A stretch of DNA of 64,000 nt from a virus: UHGV virus genome UHGV-0371537. The stretch is one strand, 5' to 3'. A program made the position numbers and the translations under genes. The notes beneath the pieces were generated by a model, which ran no database searches, was not told the origin of the DNA, and was given only the letters and a program-made list of their open reading frames with translations. Below are positions 57,516 through 64,000 of this stretch, in pieces; within the stretch, counting starts at the first letter, position 1, and every line of letters begins with the position of its first letter.

Positions 57516-58025
57516 TTACTTGTCAGGGTTCACTAAAACAGGGTTAGATACCAGTTCGCCGTTCTTCACAGAATGCTGAACCACAGCAAACTGATCGACC
57601 ATGCGATACACTTCAATCCCAGCAGCCAACATTTCAATAATACCGTCTGTGATCCGGTACGGTACATTGTATATGACCTTACCAATCTTGCCACTGTCGA
57701 TAATACGACGGGTGCATTCCGGACACGGACTGTGGGTGACAAACATCACCAGACCACACCAGTCTTCAGCCCACTGGGGGAGTTTGTTTAAGGCATTCTC
57801 CTCAGCGTGGATAACGCCCACCGATACCAGTTGACCGTCCACTTCTTTCTCGCAAACATTTGGAGCGCCGGGGGCTGTCCCGTTCCAGCCGATAGATAGG
57901 GGCTGGTCAACACGTGGGTCAACGATAACACAGCCGACCTTCAGGCGCTGGGCATAGCTGGACAGAGCGTATGCATGAGCAGAGCGCATATGCGCAAACA
58001 TCATACGGGGTTTGATAGCCATCAC
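57516..58025 (-). CDS. dCMP deaminase
   Basis: Zinc-binding motifs HAEENAL and PCPEC (cytidine/dCMP deaminase signature). Confidence 0.8.
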   Translation of the reverse strand: MMAIKPRMMFAHMRSAHAYALSSYAQRLKVGCVIVDPRVDQPLSIGWNGTAPGAPNVCEKEVDGQLVSVGVIHAEENALNKLPQWAEDWCGLVMFVTHSPCPECTRRIIDSGKIGKVIYNVPYRITDGIIEMLAAGIEVYRMVDQFAVVQHSVKNGELVSNPVLVNPDK

Positions 58026-58336
58026 ATCACCAGTTTCTTTTCAAGGAGGAAGATCATGTCGTCCTGGTCTGCGCGACCGAAGATCTGACCCATGGCGACC
58101 ATCTGGTGAACTTCTCTGGTAATGATTTCTTTGCCAGGAGTAACTTCATCCAGGTCCATGATAGTGCTGACGCGGTCTACCATGCGCGGCGGGTGATTAA
58201 TGTAGCGCTGCAGGTACTTCTCACGAGTGGCAATCAGGTTGTTCAGCTCGGCGATTTCAGACTCTTCTTCTGAGAAGCGCTTTTCCTTCGCCTGTAGTTC
58301 AGCCAGACGCTCATACATTTCTTTTAATGGGGTCAT
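58022..58336 (-). CDS. hypothetical coiled-coil protein
   Basis: ORF with AAGAGGAA SD, overlapping deaminase start. Confidence 0.4.
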   Translation of the reverse strand: MTPLKEMYERLAELQAKEKRFSEEESEIAELNNLIATREKYLQRYINHPPRMVDRVSTIMDLDEVTPGKEIITREVHQMVAMGQIFGRADQDDMIFLLEKKLVM

Positions 58337-58406
58337 TTCCGGTTCCTCTTAATAAACTAAGGGGAAGTATATACTCCCCCTTCTTCAATAACCGCTGAAT
58401 CTTTAT

Positions 58407-58745
58407 TCAGAGATAAGATTTACCGAGTTCGGTCAGGCGATAGAACGTCACCTCAGTGTTCGGCCAGTTCACGTAAGAACCGTCATGAACCATTGAGCCA
58501 GCTGGTTCGATCAACCCCTTGGCGAGCAGGGAAGCCCCTGTGCGGGTGTCCCATGGGTCGCCTTTGACGGAGGTGAAACCACCAGCGTTCGGGCATACCT
58601 GGAACGTCCAGACGGTGTTGCCCTTGTCATTTGTCCAGGATTTGGGTTGCAAGTACCGTTCACCATAACGGCAATGACCTTTCTCAAAGTTCTCTATCCC
58701 GTAGAGAACTAAGAGTTGGTGTCCTGTAATACGCGGCTTTTTCAT
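58407..58745 (-). CDS. hypothetical protein
   Basis: ATG at 58745 with AAAGGAGT SD (track ORF extends to an alternative upstream start). Confidence 0.4.
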   Translation of the reverse strand: MKKPRITGHQLLVLYGIENFEKGHCRYGERYLQPKSWTNDKGNTVWTFQVCPNAGGFTSVKGDPWDTRTGASLLAKGLIEPAGSMVHDGSYVNWPNTEVTFYRLTELGKSYL

Positions 58746-59059
58746 GACAATACTCCTTTCAGAGCTAAAACGGAAAGCACACCAATAATCAACCATGTCG
58801 GGATAATCGGCTTGCAGTTCATGTGGGTTTCTCCACCTTCGATGTTTGGACTTCCTTGTATAAGAACGTGTTCACAGGAAGCTCTGAACGTCATTACACA
58901 GCCCATCAACACAATCGGCCTGATATAATAACCCGTTTTAGTTTGCTTCACGATACATGGAGAGGAGAAGCGCAGATATGGATCCCCTTTCCGGTAGCCT
59001 GTGATTGTGACCTTCTGCACTTCAGAAGGCACCTTTTGGCCAGGAAAATAAATTTTCAT
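58742..59059 (-). CDS. hypothetical protein with C-terminal hydrophobic segment
   Basis: ORF overlapping neighbours. Confidence 0.35.
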
Positions 59060-59634
59060 ATTTCAATCCCCAGATTGGTGTATAACAACTCAGACAGGGT
59101 TACAGGACGCTTGAATTGTTCCCAACTACAGTTCAGGTATTCACGTTCTTCACGCATTTCACTGTGAAGATGACCATGGATATTATACGCCCAGCGGTCC
59201 AATTGATAAGGAACGTGAGTGGTCAGCACACGACCAACCGGAGTATCACGCTCATACATCGCACCAAAGGAGCTAATCCATCCCTCTTGATACAGCTGCA
59301 TCAACATCTTGAATCTGTCATGGTTGCCTTGCGCCACCCTGATGATAAAGTTCGGTCGCCAGTCATCGGGAACCGGGCGGCGCTTGAACTCATCAATATT
59401 CCTCTTGGCACCCTCGCGCATCAGGCGAATGAACCCCTCAGCCCCGATGAAGCAGATGTCCCCAGCCAGTTCAAGGACGTCTCGGGACTTCAGCCCCTGA
59501 AAGATACTGTCGATAACTGCAGCATCATGCGCCTCTTGGGTATCGAACCCACGGGGCTTGAAGACCTTCTTGTGTCCGAGGTGGGTGTCGCCCAGATATT
59601 TTACAATTCCTGCCATTATGGTCTCCTCAACCAT
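59056..59634 (-). CDS. calcineurin-like metallophosphoesterase
   Basis: Motifs GDTHLG, GNHD, GHLH in canonical order. Confidence 0.65.
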
Positions 59635-60044
59635 TCTAAAATCGATACGTTCACAAACCCCTTATGCCAGCGATGGGGTTTATGGCCTCTGTTGTGTTCG
59701 AGCAAACACGTGTCCGGTGGGACACTGAAGTGGATGCCGTCGATGTCGTAGTAATGCCCATCAATCAGAGTATACACATGACCTTCGGTCTGACTGTAAT
59801 GGATCTCTGCTTGAGGGTACACGTGCTTCAACAACAGAGCGACCTGGTAACACTTCCCGTTCTTCCCCACGTACTCGACATCCACCTGTTGTGGAAACAC
59901 ATCTTTGACAAGGTTTATCAATCTCGTGATGTCATTTACAACAACCGAACGTTTCATATCGCCTCTCCCGAGGATTCGTTGGTGAACCAATGATACTCTA
60001 TCCCGGATATAGAAAAGCCCCTCACGGGGCTTGATCATCTTCAT
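59616..60044 (-). CDS. hypothetical protein
   Basis: ORF overlapping neighbours; start uncertain. Confidence 0.3.
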
Positions 60045-60324
60045 CAGGGAATATACGCCATCGACCTATTCCATACCACTCACCGATAGAGTTCCATGTC
60101 CTTTCCCCAGGCCAGCCACCGACCGAGTAGTAATGCGCCACCAGCCGCCAGTAAGGAAGAGAGGCCGTGTTCACGCCGCCGTCGGCCTTTAGGCAGGCCA
60201 AGTACCAATTCGTGAGACTGAACGCCTGAAATAACGGATGAAGGAACATGAAGTACAGGTAGCCCAATATGGCTGTGAACACCCCAGCTGTTACGATCAC
60301 ACCGATGACAGTGAATACAATCAT
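60022..60324 (-). CDS. small membrane protein
   Basis: Hydrophobic N-terminal TM segment. Confidence 0.35.
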   Translation of the reverse strand: MIVFTVIGVIVTAGVFTAILGYLYFMFLHPLFQAFSLTNWYLACLKADGGVNTASLPYWRLVAHYYSVGGWPGERTWNSIGEWYGIGRWRIFPDEDDQAP

Positions 60325-60953
60325 CCCACAACCTCCAGCCCCATCAGATCTTCCATGGTCTTCTGAATACGCAGCCAGTCAAGCGCAGCGTCATAACGAG
60401 GGTCATGATAGACCATACCTTCCAGTTCCCACGCCTTGATACCAGCATACCGATCCTGCTGTCCAACACCCTTCAGCCAACTCACGATGTCGAAGGTGTG
60501 GTGGTAATCCCAAGGCTCGTTGGAATCCTGCTTACACGTCACCTCAATGATGTGCTGAGCCTTGCGCAGATCGAACAGGTTGCGATCACACCAGTCAACC
60601 GAGCGCGGGTCTACCCCAAGACGATGACAACCCTTGCGGATTTCATCGGCCAGCTGGAAGATAGAGATGTCATCTTCCTTGGGGTACAGACTGACTGCGC
60701 GAGCCGCATCACACGGGTTACGTTTACCCGCCCCCAACCACCATTCTACCGTCCCAGCGTCCTTCACGCGACCAAGTTCGAGCTGCTCTTTGACATTCAG
60801 CTTAATGAACGTCGTGTGCTCCTCAACCAGCTGCTGAAGAGTATAACGCTTGGTCAGGTCGGCGATGGTGTGCGCCCAAGACAGCATGACTGCATCATCC
60901 CAGCGCCCCAAGGTTTCACTGTCGGCCACAGCCAAAAAATTTGATTTATACAT
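60321..60953 (-). CDS. DEDD-family 3'-5' exonuclease (DexA/DnaQ-like)
   Basis: Exo motifs AVADSETLG (DxE), H..D region, YHDPRYDAALD. Confidence 0.5.
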   Translation of the reverse strand: MYKSNFLAVADSETLGRWDDAVMLSWAHTIADLTKRYTLQQLVEEHTTFIKLNVKEQLELGRVKDAGTVEWWLGAGKRNPCDAARAVSLYPKEDDISIFQLADEIRKGCHRLGVDPRSVDWCDRNLFDLRKAQHIIEVTCKQDSNEPWDYHHTFDIVSWLKGVGQQDRYAGIKAWELEGMVYHDPRYDAALDWLRIQKTMEDLMGLEVVG

Positions 60954-61197
60954 GCTTATTCTCCCAACACTTTATTTTGGCTTTTACTGTATAATAATTT
61001 TCATCAATGAACTTTTTGTTGACGCGCTTAATTTCTATCTCTGGGCAAAGTAACCCTATAGTTTCCCTCAAAATCTGGCTCACCCTGGCCTGTGAAATAC
61101 AATAAATTTCTGATACTTCTTTCGAACTAGTTCCAGACATGACAAGTTTTAGAATATTGACCTTTTTATAAAATTCTTGATCAAACGCGCATATCAT
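60946..61197 (-). CDS. small helix-turn-helix protein (sigma region-4-like HTH)
   Basis: SSKEVSEIYCISQARVSQILRE resembles a region 4.2/LuxR-type HTH. Confidence 0.45.
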   Translation of the reverse strand: MICAFDQEFYKKVNILKLVMSGTSSKEVSEIYCISQARVSQILRETIGLLCPEIEIKRVNKKFIDENYYTVKAKIKCWENKHV

Positions 61198-61200
61198 TAT

Positions 61201-61815
61201 TCACCCCTCCTCGTCGATGATTTCTTGCTCATCTTCGACAATCATGATACCTTCTGTGTCCAGATGAGAAAGTTCCATCAGATCATCATCGAATCCGTCT
61301 CCTTCCCTGATATAGAAGACTGGGACGACACGACGGCGGGTCTCTTCATACACGCTTTCAGAGATTCGATTGATATGGCGCACTACACTGTAGAGGTTCA
61401 GGCCACCAATACCACAGCCGATAGCAGGCAGGCCGACATAGACAGTTTCGTCTTTAGTTGCTTCCACAATTTCATGCACCTGCTCAAACAGGGTCTGAAC
61501 AGAACTGATGACTGACGGCATGCGAGCGTTCGGACCTGGATAAAACTGAGTGTAGAGATTCGCACCCCAAACGCCCTTGCTGTGGTCAAATGCATAGGAC
61601 ATACCACCCAGGCGTTGCTCTGGACCACGAGGGTCGTTCGCATCGACTTCGCGCAGCGCTGGGAAGTTGTTGCCGATGTGCAGGGCAATACCCGCGCCCA
61701 TGGTGGACCAGCAGTTGGCACCGTGGGCAAAGATGTTTATCAGATTGAAGCTGCAGGCGGCTTTCAGTAAATCACCGCCATTGATTACATAAGTGGTCAT
61801 GCGTACTGTCTCCAT
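61201..61815 (-). CDS. macro domain (ADP-ribose-binding/hydrolase) protein
   Basis: LINIFAHGANCWSTMGAGIALHIG (cf. macro VVNAAN..GGGV) and LPAIGCGIGGLN glycine-rich loop. Confidence 0.55.
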   Translation of the reverse strand: METVRMTTYVINGGDLLKAACSFNLINIFAHGANCWSTMGAGIALHIGNNFPALREVDANDPRGPEQRLGGMSYAFDHSKGVWGANLYTQFYPGPNARMPSVISSVQTLFEQVHEIVEATKDETVYVGLPAIGCGIGGLNLYSVVRHINRISESVYEETRRRVVPVFYIREGDGFDDDLMELSHLDTEGIMIVEDEQEIIDEEG

Positions 61816-62039
61816 TCAATAATGCTGTTGTCAACACACAACACCTGAAAGATGCCCGTGCGGTGGCGATAATCGGTTATCTGCAGGATAAAGTTGTTCC
61901 CATTGCGGATAATGGTGTTGACAACGATACCCTTGGCAGCAAGGCGTGTTACTATCTCAGTGCAAAGGCGGTCCATATAACCGGACACAGAACCTGGTTC
62001 AAAGCAGCGCTCGAACAGATTTTCAAATTCTGGATTCAT
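61797..62039 (-). CDS. hypothetical small protein
   Basis: ORF overlapping macro gene start. Confidence 0.3.
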   Translation of the reverse strand: MNPEFENLFERCFEPGSVSGYMDRLCTEIVTRLAAKGIVVNTIIRNGNNFILQITDYRHRTGIFQVLCVDNSIIEWRQYA

Positions 62040-62089
62040 TTGTTGTTACCAAACAAGGGGTCGAGGCGGTAATAATACCGCCTTTTTCT

Positions 62090-62473
62090 TCAATAGAGGT
62101 CTTCGGAAAAGAGTTCACGGAAAGGATTGGTTTTGAGGCGGACCTGGTTGATCTGTCCGGCTTCACGGGCTACGACGCAAGCCTCTTCACGAGTGAGGAA
62201 GTTCCCCTGATTGTCGATGAAGCCCTGCTCACGAGTATGAGTAGATTTAATGACGCCAGCCTCCTTCAGAATCTTGAGCTGGCTGTTCATGAATCGGCTA
62301 TGGTGTCGGTCAGCAACAACGATTACATCACCATATTTGTTTGCAGCAGCGACCACACGGCGCTCCCAAGCCCCTTCCGCAGGGAGGTCACGGGTGTACA
62401 GGGGAATCACAGTATCACCGATGGAGTCGCCATTCACCTGGGAGAATAATTTACCATCAGTGCCTGTTGGCAT
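62090..62473 (-). CDS. hypothetical protein
   Basis: ORF; hairpin GGCGGTA-ataa-TACCGCC just downstream. Confidence 0.4.
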   Translation of the reverse strand: MPTGTDGKLFSQVNGDSIGDTVIPLYTRDLPAEGAWERRVVAAANKYGDVIVVADRHHSRFMNSQLKILKEAGVIKSTHTREQGFIDNQGNFLTREEACVVAREAGQINQVRLKTNPFRELFSEDLY

Positions 62474-62502
62474 TCACGAAAATAACCAAGTAATTTCATA
62501 AT

Positions 62503-62823
62503 CTAGTCAATCCATATTTCAGGTTCAGGAATGTCGACCATATCCACTGTCTGGTTCTTCAGATCATGGAAACAGTCGCCGAGGAATTGTATTTTGCCGT
62601 CGGTCAGGAACAGATGGCAACGTGACGCTGGGTCAGATGCATTCACAAGCAGGCTCGGCGTGAACGTAGGCTCAACAACATTGTTGTTCCACGTCCACAC
62701 TGGACCTTGTTCTGGAGATCCCTTCACGCGGTATGGGTGAAGCATATCACACCCAGGACAATGAAAATACAGGGAATCACCCATGGACAGAAGTTTAGGA
62801 CTCAGAAGATGCGACATGATCAA
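62503..62823 (-). CDS. hypothetical protein with HCPGC...H motif
   Basis: Possible small metal-binding protein. Confidence 0.35.
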   Translation of the reverse strand: MIMSHLLSPKLLSMGDSLYFHCPGCDMLHPYRVKGSPEQGPVWTWNNNVVEPTFTPSLLVNASDPASRCHLFLTDGKIQFLGDCFHDLKNQTVDMVDIPEPEIWID

Positions 62824-63107
62824 CCCTCCACGCTTGCTTCAGGATCGTATGGGCGCAGTTCACCAATCAGTTTCGGGAAAAGAGCGAACCCAAACAAGTT
62901 GAAAGAACGCATGGTGCCGACCATTGCAACATCTTCCCCTTCCTCGATATCTTTCAGGGCGCACATTGGGTAATATTCATCGACCTCCGGGTCTTCGGTT
63001 TCACCATAGAGGCCAAACGCCACCTCTTCTTTGATAAAGCGAGGAACCAGGAAATCAAATAGGAAAATGATGAATACCACAGGCGCTGCAGAACGGAGAT
63101 AGAACAT
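62820..63107 (-). CDS. hypothetical small protein with N-terminal hydrophobic segment
   Basis: Overlaps upstream gene by 4 nt. Confidence 0.3.
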   Translation of the reverse strand: MFYLRSAAPVVFIIFLFDFLVPRFIKEEVAFGLYGETEDPEVDEYYPMCALKDIEEGEDVAMVGTMRSFNLFGFALFPKLIGELRPYDPEASVEG

Positions 63108-63149
63108 AGCACAATCCTCGCAGGTGAGGAGGGGCGAACCCCTCCGATG

Positions 63150-64000
63150 TTATAGGCCAAGAGCCTTTTCAAGGTCATCAAGATCTTCAGCGTACAGATC
63201 AATGTCCTCTTTCTTACTTAATTCCTTGTGTTGTGCTTCAAGGTTCTCAATCTGCTTGAGTAGGCGCTCACGGGCATCCAAGGTGATGGATGATAGAGGC
63301 ATCTTGAACAATTCGTCAAGGTCACCATCAAAGTCTGGGTAGTCTGTCTGGAACAATGCCTTCAGCTCATCAAGACTGCGTCGTAGGTCAGTCACCACAG
63401 CCCATGCAATAAACAGGGCACGATTGTTCAGCTTACGAATTCTGTCGGCCATATCCTTCAACAGATACTGGCGACGGTCTTCATACCGTGACAGGCGATA
63501 GTTGAAGAACGGCAACAACATATCCTGCCAACCAGCATAACGATGGATTACCCCGTCTTCATCCCATGCTGTCCAAACAGGCTTGTTGGCAGAGTACAAC
63601 TTGAACATCTGCTCAACCTGTTCATCACTCAGCTTAGAGAGTTCACCCCGCTTGAATACAACCGTGATATCCCAGCCGTCTTCGGTCGTGTCGTTGGCGT
63701 ACTCGGTCAGGATACCAGCCTTGTACAGAGGCAGCAACACCTTGGTCTCATAGGTCTTGGCAAACCAACCCACTGGGACTTCGGTGATATGCAGGGTGGT
63801 GGCATTGACGCGACGGAAGATGCCGCGACTGTATGCCCTTCCTTCCTCAGTATAGCCTGTCTCCCCTTTGTAGCCGTTCCAGTACGGTTTTAAGTCTTTC
63901 GGGTCTTCGCCACGGAGAAGCGCTCTCAGGGCACTGAGCACGGACTTAACGCAATGACAAGGGGTGTCGGTGGAATATCCGGTGCCGATACCATTGATCC
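63150..64000 (-). CDS. type II DNA topoisomerase subunit, 5'-partial (continues beyond window end)
   Basis: Frame open from window end; translation upstream of the track start contains GIGTGYST, resembling the topo II GIGTGW motif; C-terminal coiled-coil. Confidence 0.5.
   Translation of the reverse strand, partial: INGIGTGYSTDTPCHCVKSVLSALRALLRGEDPKDLKPYWNGYKGETGYTEEGRAYSRGIFRRVNATTLHITEVPVGWFAKTYETKVLLPLYKAGILTEYANDTTEDGWDITVVFKRGELSKLSDEQVEQMFKLYSANKPVWTAWDEDGVIHRYAGWQDMLLPFFNYRLSRYEDRRQYLLKDMADRIRKLNNRALFIAWAVVTDLRRSLDELKALFQTDYPDFDGDLDELFKMPLSSITLDARERLLKQIENLEAQHKELSKKEDIDLYAEDLDDLEKALGL

What the first reader, a model, noticed from the sequence alone, without database searches (positions are those of the whole stretch)
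60946..61815. Macro-domain protein with adjacent small HTH protein in the early block: candidate anti-defense function
ORF 61201..61815 has macro-domain signatures (HGANCWSTMGAGIA; LPAIGCGIGGLN). Macro domains bind or hydrolyse ADP-ribose. In an early-gene block of a lytic phage this could reverse host ADP-ribosylation (DarT-type DNA modification) or degrade ADP-ribose-derived immune signals. A sigma region-4-like HTH protein (60946..61197) and a DEDD exonuclease (60321..60953) are adjacent and likely co-transcribed.
Basis: inference. Interest (0 to 1): 0.6.

Follow-up and report, generated by a model that had tools for sequence, protein, structure and literature searches.

The report
Phage DarG-like macrodomain, AdfM/Tk.4 homologue

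Summary
All genes lie on the minus strand of an Ackermannviridae (Aglimvirinae) genome that is 95% identical to Escherichia phage AV101. ORF 61201-61815 (true start probably 61800) folds as a macrodomain (AlphaFold pLDDT 95.8). Its best structural matches are TARG1, Poa1p, DarG and SCO6735. A family profile hits the DarG macrodomains at E 1e-16, and DarG is the only NCBIfam and PADLOC hit. The protein is 33% identical to T4 Tk.4 and falls in the same PHROG (335) as T4 Tk.4 and PhiKZ gp104. Both of those were named AdfM in 2025-2026 and shown to counter DarTG2. The likeliest function is therefore removal of DarT2-made ADP-ribose from thymidine in phage DNA.

Two details differ from the known proteins. 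The catalytic Lys of DarG/TARG1 is an invariant Gln, as in SCO6735, where that Gln is essential. A structured acidic 35-residue C-terminal extension is present that T4 Tk.4 lacks.

The 83-aa HTH gene is a sigma region-4-type orphan on a 247-bp, 34% GC cassette. It sits exactly between tk.4 and dexA in only 5 known phages, so it is not a conserved partner of the macrodomain. The exonuclease is a DexA homologue.

Verdict: new member of a known kind; modest interest.

The parts
61201..61815 (-). Macrodomain gene, a homologue of T4 tk.4/adfM. This is the maximal ORF of 204 aa; the probable true start is Met6 at 61800, giving 199 aa. The macro core spans about residues 7-169. Family-invariant residues are H31, G32, N34, C35, G42, N86, Q90, G94 and P130. 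A structured acidic C-terminal extension covers residues 170-204 (15 acidic, 1 basic).
60946..61197 (-). 83-aa orphan gene with a sigma-70 region-4 / LuxR-type helix-turn-helix (core about residues 11-50) followed by two further predicted helices.
60954..61200 (.). 247-bp inserted cassette with 33.6% GC against 49.6% for the window. It carries the HTH ORF and a new Shine-Dalgarno sequence (GGGAGAA) for dexA. In most relatives the tk.4 stop is directly followed by the dexA ATG (TAAATG).
60321..60953 (-). DexA-type DEDDh 3'-5' exonuclease gene. Its start overlaps the HTH stop by 8 nt.
61797..62039 (-). Upstream gene of unknown function (DUF7234, 80 aa). Its stop overlaps the probable macro start (ATGA).
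60022..60324 (-). Small hydrophobic protein gene (phrog_2531). It is the last gene of the tightly packed run and overlaps dexA by 4 nt.
60015..60032 (-). Terminator-like hairpin (AAGCCCC-GTGA-GGGGCTT followed by a T-run) at the end of the gene run. It is the likely 3' end of the transcription unit.
62063..62084 (.). 9-bp GC-rich hairpin in the 50-nt gap upstream of DUF7234. It scores as a terminator only on the + strand, and its role is unknown.

Best explanation
The 61201-61815 gene encodes a free-standing DarG-like ('ALC1-like'/TARG1 class) macrodomain, the Ackermannviridae counterpart of T4 Tk.4 (AdfM). It most likely acts as an orphan antitoxin. When a host DarT2 toxin ADP-ribosylates thymidines in single-stranded phage DNA and stalls replication, the enzyme binds the ADP-ribose through its two glycine-rich loops (MGAGIA and GCGIGG) and hydrolyses the ribose-thymine bond, restoring replicable DNA. 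Catalysis probably follows the SCO6735 type: an invariant Gln (Q90) sits where DarG and TARG1 have the catalytic Lys and positions the distal ribose for attack by an activated water, helped by the invariant Asn34.

Shown here: the fold, the homology, the conserved residues and the gene context. Inferred: the substrate, the activity and the anti-DarTG2 role of this particular protein.

The gene is probably transcribed with DUF7234, the HTH cassette gene, dexA and a small membrane-protein gene as one tightly coupled run. The HTH gene is a later, laterally exchanged insertion with a separate, unknown function. It is most plausibly a DNA-binding or RNA-polymerase-directed regulator.
For: Fold:
- AlphaFold pLDDT 95.8.
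- Foldseek top hits are TARG1, Poa1p, Mtb and Taq DarG, T. africanus DarTG and SCO6735.

Sequence:
- Family profile against DarG macrodomains at E 9e-17 and 3e-16.
- The only NCBIfam hit is antitoxin_DarG (2e-8).
- The only PADLOC hit is DarG (7e-8).

Homology to proven anti-DarTG2 factors:
- BLASTP against T4 Tk.4 gives 33% identity over 115 aa, E 1e-15.
- The window protein, T4 Tk.4 and PhiKZ gp104 all match phrog_335 best, at 2e-63, 1e-65 and 8e-43.
- hhalign of the family against PhiKZ gp104 gives probability 97.9%.

Function of those homologues:
- T4 tk.4 was the single hit in a transposon screen on a DarTG2 host, and its clean deletion sensitises T4 (10.1101/2025.11.20.689424).
- PhiKZ AdfM removes DarT2-made ADP-ribose from DNA in vitro and rescues DarT2 toxicity; mutating a conserved Asn (construct 'gp104 N23A') reduces activity (PMC13309987).

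Active site:
- N34 is invariant and aligns with that Asn.
- Q90 is invariant in 65 of 65 family members and is also present in T4 Tk.4. It aligns with the Lys of the T-K motif in DarG, TARG1 and PhiKZ AdfM in three independent alignments.
- SCO6735 has Gln85 at that position, needs it for activity, and cleaves thymidine-linked ADP-ribose (PMC9411070).

The family is widespread in lytic phages: 2688 phage records carry it.
Against: - No assay exists for this protein or for any Ackermannviridae member; the literature search found none.
- Identity to T4 Tk.4 is only 33%, and macrodomain substrate specificity can shift within a class. The same structural neighbours include Poa1p, an ADP-ribose-1''-phosphate phosphatase, and TARG1, a protein glutamate-ADP-ribose hydrolase.
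- The T4 evidence is genetic and comes from a preprint. Hydrolysis by a Gln-type phage macrodomain has not been shown biochemically; PhiKZ AdfM is Lys-type.
- The scores against the curated DarG models are far below their cut-offs (33.9 against 250 bits). These models cover full-length DarG, and the DarT-binding C-terminal domain is absent here.
- From my own knowledge, not tested here: Ackermannviridae replace part of their thymidine with a hypermodified base. This could change how much DarT2 matters for them.
Confidence: 0.65

Rival explanations
1. The macrodomain is a housekeeping-type hydrolase of another ADP-ribose derivative rather than a DNA de-ADP-ribosylase. Candidates are ADP-ribose-1''-phosphate (the old 'A1pp phosphatase' annotation of Tk.4), O-acetyl-ADP-ribose, or mono-ADP-ribosylated proteins or RNA. 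In that case it would reverse protein- or RNA-directed ADP-ribosyltransferases of host or phage.
For: - GenBank and PHROG label the family 'phosphatase' (A1pp motif).
- Poa1p and TARG1 are among the best structural matches.
- Metagenome annotations call short homologues 'O-acetyl-ADP-ribose deacetylase'.
- SCO6735 also acts on protein substrates.
Against: - The only experimental data for members of this phage family point to DarT2-modified DNA.
- Sequence profiles rank the DarG macrodomains above TARG1 and Poa1p.
- The catalytic Lys/Asp dyad of TARG1 is absent: Q90, and GIGG where TARG1 has GLDR.
- The 'phosphatase' names are automatic annotation, not tests.
Confidence: 0.2
2. The protein is a non-catalytic binder. 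It would sequester ADP-ribose-derived immune signals (Thoeris-type) or bind and block DarT directly, using the acidic C-terminal extension, without hydrolysis.
For: - The canonical catalytic Lys is missing.
- Catalytically dead SCO6735, DarG and TARG1 still inhibit DarT by interaction.
- ICP1 AdfB is thought to act by direct interaction.
- The window protein has a conserved extra C-terminal module with 15 acidic residues out of 35.
Against: - The Gln that replaces the Lys is invariant, and the equivalent Gln is essential for catalysis in SCO6735.
- T4 Tk.4 works without the extension.
- No similarity was found to known signal sponges.
- The extension is predicted to be folded (pLDDT 93-98), not a disordered DNA-mimic tail.
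Confidence: 0.08
3. The macrodomain and the HTH protein form a functional two-gene module, for example a regulator plus an enzyme, or a toxin-antitoxin-like pair.
For: The two genes are adjacent, 3 nt apart, on the same strand, with translational-coupling-type overlaps to the neighbouring genes.
Against: - The HTH cassette is found in only 4 of 50,697 phage records plus the window, whereas about 200 related genomes have tk.4 directly abutting dexA.
- It has a foreign base composition: 33.6% GC against 51.5% for the macro gene.
- It is 98-100% identical across genera whose macro genes are only about 80% identical.
- It has a single 90%-identity cluster among 5.8 billion clusters, and no close relatives among 1.8 billion cluster representatives.
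Confidence: 0.05

Closest known systems
T4 Tk.4 = AdfM (anti-DarT factor macrodomain; bioRxiv 10.1101/2025.11.20.689424)
   Same: Both are free-standing phage macrodomains in the same PHROG (335). Identity is 33% with E 1e-15. They share the signature motifs AHG(A/C)NC, MG(A/S)G(I/V)A, NLYTQF-PGPN and P-IG-GIG, including Gln in place of the DarG Lys. Both lie in a T4-like early/middle DNA-metabolism gene block, and GenBank annotators already label the Ackermannviridae gene 'Tk.4'.
   Different: The window protein is 199-204 aa against 155 aa. It carries a structured, strongly acidic C-terminal extension of about 35 residues that is conserved in Ackermannviridae-type homologues and absent from T4. 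Its neighbours also differ: here DUF7234 and dexA, in T4 tk.3 and vs. Its function is untested.
PhiKZ gp104 = AdfM (Cell Rep 2026, PMC13309987)
   Same: It is in the same PHROG, hhalign probability is 97.9%, and the conserved Asn (N23 there, N34 here) and both glycine loops are shared. It is a biochemically shown DarT2-ADP-ribosyl-DNA hydrolase and DarT2 neutraliser.
   Different: PhiKZ AdfM keeps the DarG-type FPTK Lys where the window protein has NLYTQ. It is imported into a phage nucleus, which Ackermannviridae are not known to build (my own knowledge). It has no acidic C-terminal module.
DarG antitoxin macrodomain (M. tuberculosis 5m3i, T. aquaticus 5m31/5m3e)
   Same: DarG is the best sequence-profile hit (E about 1e-16) and a top structural hit. 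It has the same ALC1-like macro class and the same loop motifs.
   Different: The catalytic Lys80 is replaced by Gln. The C-terminal DarT-binding domain is missing, no darT partner gene is present, and the protein is phage-encoded. It scores far below the NCBIfam DarG cut-off (33.9 against 250 bits).
Streptomyces coelicolor SCO6735 (5e3b)
   Same: It is an ALC1-like macrodomain with Gln, not Lys, at the catalytic position. It is free-standing, hydrolyses thymidine-linked ADP-ribose on DNA, and protects against DarT. It has the highest sequence identity (23%) among the PDB structural hits.
   Different: It is a bacterial DNA-damage-regulated gene with a longer mobile loop carrying Lys89/Lys94. 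The direct residue-level alignment to SCO6735 was not displayed by the tools; equivalence of Q90 and Gln85 is transitive, through the DarG/TARG1 Lys.
Sigma-70 family region 4 / LuxR-GerE helix-turn-helix (for the 83-aa protein)
   Same: Residues 11-47 are 59% identical to region 4 of a bacterial sigma factor (P0084). There are weak Pfam and NCBIfam hits to Sigma70_r4, GerE and ECF sigma. The predicted three-helix core superposes on LuxR-type and sigma r4 domains at 1-2 A over about 40 residues.
   Different: There are no regions 2 or 3, so it cannot be a sigma factor. It has an extra two-helix C-terminal half with no match. No Foldseek hit reaches E 0.001. It is an orphan with one protein cluster known.

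Membership tests
Macrodomain superfamily (Pfam PF01661 clan) | Three-layer alpha/beta/alpha macro fold | tested here: met
   The AlphaFold model has pLDDT 95.8. 214 PDB chains match at E<=0.001, and all of the best are macrodomains or designs built on that fold.
Macrodomain superfamily (Pfam PF01661 clan) | Pfam Macro model at gathering score | tested here: not met
   The score is 16.4 bits against a cut-off of 22, with only the C-terminal third aligned. More distant family members do pass (the PF01661 column), so the failure reflects divergence rather than absence of the domain.
Macrodomain superfamily (Pfam PF01661 clan) | Glycine-rich ADP-ribose (pyrophosphate) binding loops | tested here: met
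   MGAGIA (39-44) and GCGIGG (133-138) are conserved in at least 85% of 65 homologues (57-65 of 65 per position) and align with the DarG and TARG1 loops.
ALC1-like / TARG1-DarG class of macrodomains | Closest sequence and structural neighbours are TARG1, DarG, Poa1p and SCO6735 rather than MacroD/Af1521 or PARG types | tested here: met
   In the profile search, DarG, TARG1 and SCO6735 score 1e-12 to 1e-16 while Af1521 scores 0.02. The Foldseek ranking agrees.
ALC1-like / TARG1-DarG class of macrodomains | Catalytic Lys (TARG1 K84, DarG K80) | tested here: not met
   An invariant Gln90 occupies that column in three independent alignments. This matches the SCO6735 Gln85 variant, which is catalytically active.
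Phage AdfM (T4 Tk.4 type) | Sequence homology to T4 Tk.4 with shared family signature | tested here: met
   BLASTP E 1e-15. Both have phrog_335 as best hit. All invariant residues are shared.
Phage AdfM (T4 Tk.4 type) | Confers resistance to DarTG2 / removes ADP-ribose from thymidine in DNA | not testable with these tools
   This needs plaque assays on DarTG2 hosts and an in vitro de-ADP-ribosylation assay.
DarG antitoxin (NCBIfam NF048014, PADLOC DarG) | Full-length architecture of macrodomain plus C-terminal DarT-binding domain, encoded next to darT | tested here: not met
   Only model positions 6-135 of 338 match, at 33.9 bits against a cut-off of 250. No darT-like neighbour is present. The C-terminal 35 residues are unrelated and acidic.
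Sigma-70 family sigma factor (for the 83-aa protein) | Region 2 (core binding, -10 recognition) plus region 4 | tested here: not met
   Only a region-4-like HTH is present, the protein is 83 aa, and the Pfam Sigma70_r4 score of 16.6 is below the 24.1 cut-off.
DexA / DEDDh 3'-5' exonuclease (for 60321-60953) | Homology to DexA-type exonucleases and the DEDDh motifs | tested here: met
   phrog_255 at 1.8e-52. PDB 8kel at E 6e-4 over the full length. D-S-E at residues 11-13 and H-x4-D near residue 183 are visible in the translation.

The most novel reading that the evidence does not exclude
The Ackermannviridae-type AdfM may be a two-mode inhibitor. In this reading, the structured, highly acidic C-terminal module (residues 170-204, absent from T4 Tk.4 and PhiKZ AdfM) would be a phage-invented functional analogue of DarG's DarT-binding domain, or would retarget the enzyme to another partner such as the replisome or SSB. 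This would add stoichiometric toxin blocking to Gln-type catalysis. Separately, the 247-bp low-GC cassette could encode a new free-standing sigma-region-4 mimic that acts on host RNA polymerase or on a defence regulator and spreads between Ackermannviridae genera by recombination.
Probability: 0.15. Interest if true: 0.55.

Novelty: new member of a known kind. Interest (0 to 1): 0.3.

Why it matters
Phage-encoded orphan antitoxins against DarTG are a current topic: AdfA, AdfB and AdfN, and AdfM since 2025-2026. This analysis places the Ackermannviridae 'Tk.4-like hypothetical protein / phosphatase', present in some 280 deposited genomes in its long form, in the AdfM family. That gives a testable annotation to a gene found in many therapeutic-candidate Salmonella, E. 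coli and Klebsiella phages.

It also points out that the T4 and Ackermannviridae branch is a Gln-type enzyme like SCO6735, not a Lys-type enzyme like DarG and PhiKZ AdfM. This matters for mechanism and for inhibitor or engineering work.

The sharp mosaicism inside the gene and the cassette inserted next to it mark this spot as an actively exchanged region. However, the main functional idea is already published for homologues, so the finding confirms rather than discovers.

Tried and rejected
- Pfam alone does not establish the macrodomain (sub-threshold), and a single-sequence PDB search was marginal (E 0.018). Profiles and structure were needed.
- I looked for transposon-like or homing-element features around the HTH cassette. 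Only short chance-level repeats appeared, with no flanking direct or inverted repeats at the insertion boundaries. A self-mobile element was therefore rejected in favour of gain by homologous recombination.
- I searched for relatives of the HTH protein. The word-indexed search of 5.8 billion clusters found only itself. The exhaustive HMMER search of 1.8 billion representatives found four weak HTH-only matches. The Foldseek PDB search gave no hit at E<=0.001. No functional assignment was possible.
- I looked for structured RNAs in 58000-64000 and found no Rfam family.
- The promoter scan gave no more sites than shuffled sequence (7 against 6.5 +/- 2.5), so no promoter claim is made.
- The Arn.3-like neighbour, annotated 'tRNA processing enzyme' in some records, was checked as a possible link to an ADP-ribose-1''-phosphate pathway. 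It has no Pfam, NCBIfam or PDB match, so that link has no support.
- A direct residue-level alignment to SCO6735 could not be displayed, because the tool prints only the five best alignments. The Gln equivalence is therefore transitive.
Full report
**Where we are.** The window region 59600-62500 is 95.3% identical to Escherichia phage AV101 (Ackermannviridae, Aglimvirinae). It matches 204 phage records, almost all of them Ackermannviridae of Salmonella, Escherichia, Shigella and relatives. All genes in this stretch lie on the minus strand. The surrounding genes are T4-like DNA-metabolism functions: split topoisomerase II, Arn.3-like, DexA, a phosphoesterase, dCMP deaminase, and rIIA/B a little further away. 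This is why 'early/middle block' is a fair analogy, but it is no more than an analogy.

**The observation.** ORF 61201-61815 (204 aa) contains the two quoted motifs.
- Pfam Macro is below threshold: 16.4 against 22 bits.
- The PHROG match is decisive: phrog_335, E 2.4e-63.
- A profile of 65 homologues hits the macrodomains of M. tuberculosis and T. aquaticus DarG (E 9e-17 and 3e-16), TARG1 (4e-14) and SCO6735 (1e-12).
- The AlphaFold model built on that alignment is very confident (pLDDT 95.8, pTM 0.92).
- Its best PDB matches are TARG1, Poa1p, DarG, the Thermosipho DarTG fusion and SCO6735.
- The only NCBIfam hit is 'antitoxin_DarG' and the only PADLOC hit is DarG. Both cover just the macro part and fall far below the full-length cut-off.

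The macrodomain is therefore real and belongs to the ALC1-like (TARG1/DarG) class. The start codon is probably Met6 at 61800. It forms an ATGA overlap with the DUF7234 stop and has GGAGA 9 nt upstream. Close homologues (P0001-P0008, all 199 aa) and the AV101 annotation begin at this Met.

**What it is.**
- GenBank annotators already call the Ackermannviridae gene 'Tk.4 protein'.
- I tested this directly. BLASTP against T4 Tk.4 gives 33% identity over 115 residues, E 1e-15.
- T4 Tk.4 shares every family-invariant residue.
- T4 Tk.4, PhiKZ gp104 and the window protein all have phrog_335 as their best family.
- hhalign of the family against PhiKZ gp104 gives 97.9% probability.

Both comparison proteins were recently characterised. 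In a T4 transposon library, tk.4 was the single gene depleted on a DarTG2 host. A clean knockout sensitised T4, and the gene was renamed adfM (bioRxiv 10.1101/2025.11.20.689424). PhiKZ gp104, also named AdfM, removes DarT2-made ADP-ribose from a TNTC oligonucleotide and rescues DarT2 toxicity. Mutating a conserved Asn (construct 'gp104 N23A') reduces its activity (PMC13309987). Earlier work had predicted that T4 must hold such a factor (PMC11825919).

The most likely function of the window protein is therefore an orphan DarG-like antitoxin that de-ADP-ribosylates phage DNA. This is inference by homology. No paper in the library deals with the Ackermannviridae protein.

**Mechanistic detail.**
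- The family-invariant residues are H31, G32, N34, C35, G42, N86, Q90, G94 and P130.
- N34 aligns with the Asn mutated in PhiKZ AdfM.
- Q90 lies in the invariant NLYTQ strand. It aligns with the Lys of the 'T-K' motif of DarG (K80), TARG1 (K84) and PhiKZ AdfM (FPTK) in three independent alignments: profile against PDB, the bridging homologue P0079 against DarG at E 2e-18, and hhalign. The canonical catalytic Lys is thus absent.
- This is not a sign of inactivity. SCO6735 has Gln85 at the equivalent position, loses all activity when it is mutated, and cleaves thymidine-linked ADP-ribose by a proposed water-activated mechanism (PMC9411070).
- T4 Tk.4 is also Gln-type (NLYTQF) and works genetically.

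I therefore propose that the T4 and Ackermannviridae branch uses SCO6735-like chemistry, whereas PhiKZ AdfM is DarG-like. The equivalence of Q90 and SCO6735 Gln85 is transitive, because the tool did not print that alignment.

**What differs from T4 AdfM.** The window protein has about 35 extra C-terminal residues (170-204), of which 15 are acidic and 1 is basic. The extension is conserved in length and charge among the roughly 30 closest homologues (30-46 residues). It is shorter (18-29 residues) and less acidic in the next tier of homologues. It is absent from T4 Tk.4 and from the 145-160-aa homologues, several of which carry Lys-rich tails instead. The model predicts it to be folded as helix-strand-helix with pLDDT 93-98. 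Its role is unknown. A second, binding-type mode of DarT inhibition is possible, since dead SCO6735, DarG and TARG1 still inhibit DarT, but this is speculative.

**The HTH gene.**
- ORF 60946-61197 (83 aa) sits on a 247-bp segment that is simply missing in most relatives. In A221 and ChubbyThor the tk.4 stop is followed at once by the dexA ATG (TAAATG).
- The segment has 33.6% GC, against 49.6% for the window and 51-54% for the flanking genes.
- It occurs in only four of 50,697 phage records: AV101, 4HA11, and the Kuttervirus phages SilasIsHot and KE31.
- It is 97.6-100% identical among them, although the macro gene of the two Kuttervirus phages is only 80-81% identical to the window's.
- Identity profiles show breakpoints inside the macro gene, so the cassette moves by homologous recombination between co-infecting phages. 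No flanking repeats suggest a self-mobile element.
- The cassette is neatly integrated. The HTH gene uses the old dexA Shine-Dalgarno sequence (GGAGG within the macro gene's last codons), and the cassette supplies a new one (GGGAGAA) for dexA.
- The protein is an orphan: one 90%-identity cluster among 5.8 billion clusters. The exhaustive search added only HTH-repeat proteins and P0084, which is 59% identical over 37 residues.
- P0084 passes Pfam Sigma70_r4 and is the region-4 half of a split bacterial sigma-factor gene.
- The model (pLDDT 88.6 for the best of five, but the five range from 46.2 to 88.6) shows a three-helix HTH plus two extra helices. Structural matches are weak and limited to LuxR-type and sigma r4 cores.

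However, the protein cannot be a sigma factor, and it is not a conserved partner of the macrodomain. Its function is open: a DNA-binding regulator or an RNA-polymerase-directed factor are the plausible guesses.

**The exonuclease and the operon.**
- ORF 60321-60953 is a DexA homologue: phrog_255 at 1.8e-52, PDB 8kel at E 6e-4 over its full length, and visible D-x-E and H-x4-D motifs.
- Gene spacing is tight. DUF7234 and macro overlap by 4 nt from the probable start. Macro and HTH are separated by a 3-nt gap. HTH and dexA overlap by 8 nt. dexA and the small membrane-protein gene overlap by 4 nt.
- No promoter-like or terminator-like site lies inside the run.
- A good terminator-like hairpin at 60032-60015 lies just after the last gene.
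- Co-transcription is likely but not shown. The promoter scan is no better than chance.

**Rivals.**
1. A hydrolase of another ADP-ribose derivative (ADP-ribose-1''-phosphate, O-acetyl-ADP-ribose, protein or RNA ADP-ribose). This is consistent with the old 'phosphatase' label and with Poa1p and TARG1 among the structural neighbours. It is not favoured by the experimental data on family members or by the profile ranking (confidence about 0.2).
2. A non-catalytic binder or sponge. This is disfavoured by the invariant, SCO6735-like Gln and Asn (about 0.08).
3. A macro-HTH functional pair. This is rejected by the distribution and composition of the cassette (about 0.05).

**Verdict.** This is a new member of a known kind: the Ackermannviridae branch of AdfM, which is Gln-type and carries an acidic C-terminal module. 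A laterally exchanged orphan HTH cassette lies next to it. Interest is modest at 0.3.

Noticed in passing
window 60821-61800: The macro gene is sharply mosaic. Against Kuttervirus SilasIsHot, identity is 96-99% over 60821-61420 (the 5' end of dexA, the HTH cassette and the 3' third of the macro gene) but 56-76% over 61421-61800. Against KE31 the pattern is reversed: 63-68% over 61221-61420 and 94-98% over 61421-61620. Recombination breakpoints therefore lie inside the gene. The macro gene (80-81% identity) is also more diverged than its neighbour DUF7234 (95-96%).
   Followed up: partly
window 60015-60032 (minus strand) and 62063-62084: A clean terminator-like hairpin follows the small membrane-protein gene. 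A second GC-rich hairpin sits in the 50-nt gap between the Arn.3-like gene and DUF7234. The second one has a T-run only on the + strand, where no gene runs.
   Followed up: no
window 59616-60044 (minus strand): The maximal ORF for the YunG-like protein (142 aa) probably starts at an internal Met. The PHROG match begins at residue 30, AV101 annotates 113 aa, and the terminator-like hairpin lies inside the apparent 5' extension.
   Followed up: no
homologues P0066, P0069, P0070, P0071, P0074 (alignment A2): Several short members of the macro family end in Lys-rich tails (for example KATKVKNKK and VAPKVDLGKKKK), whereas Ackermannviridae-type members end in an acidic folded module. The C-terminus is thus a variable add-on in this family.
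   Followed up: no
L007 4565-5195: The closest relative of the phage HTH, P0084, is the region-4 ORF of a sigma-factor gene that appears split into separate region-2 and region-4 ORFs on a bacterial metagenome contig.
   Followed up: no
window 62090-62473 (minus strand): The Arn.3-like protein (phrog_839) is labelled 'tRNA processing enzyme' in some GenBank records, but it has no Pfam, NCBIfam or PDB sequence match here. That label is unsupported.
   Followed up: partly
L003 1355-2041 and L005 755-1417, corresponding to the gap near window 60044: Other Ackermannviridae carry extra genes a few hundred bases downstream of dexA, between the YunG-like and membrane-protein genes. Annotations include 'alpha hydrolase', and QueC-like or C-N hydrolase in other records. 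The whole stretch is therefore a hotspot for accessory gene insertion.
   Followed up: no
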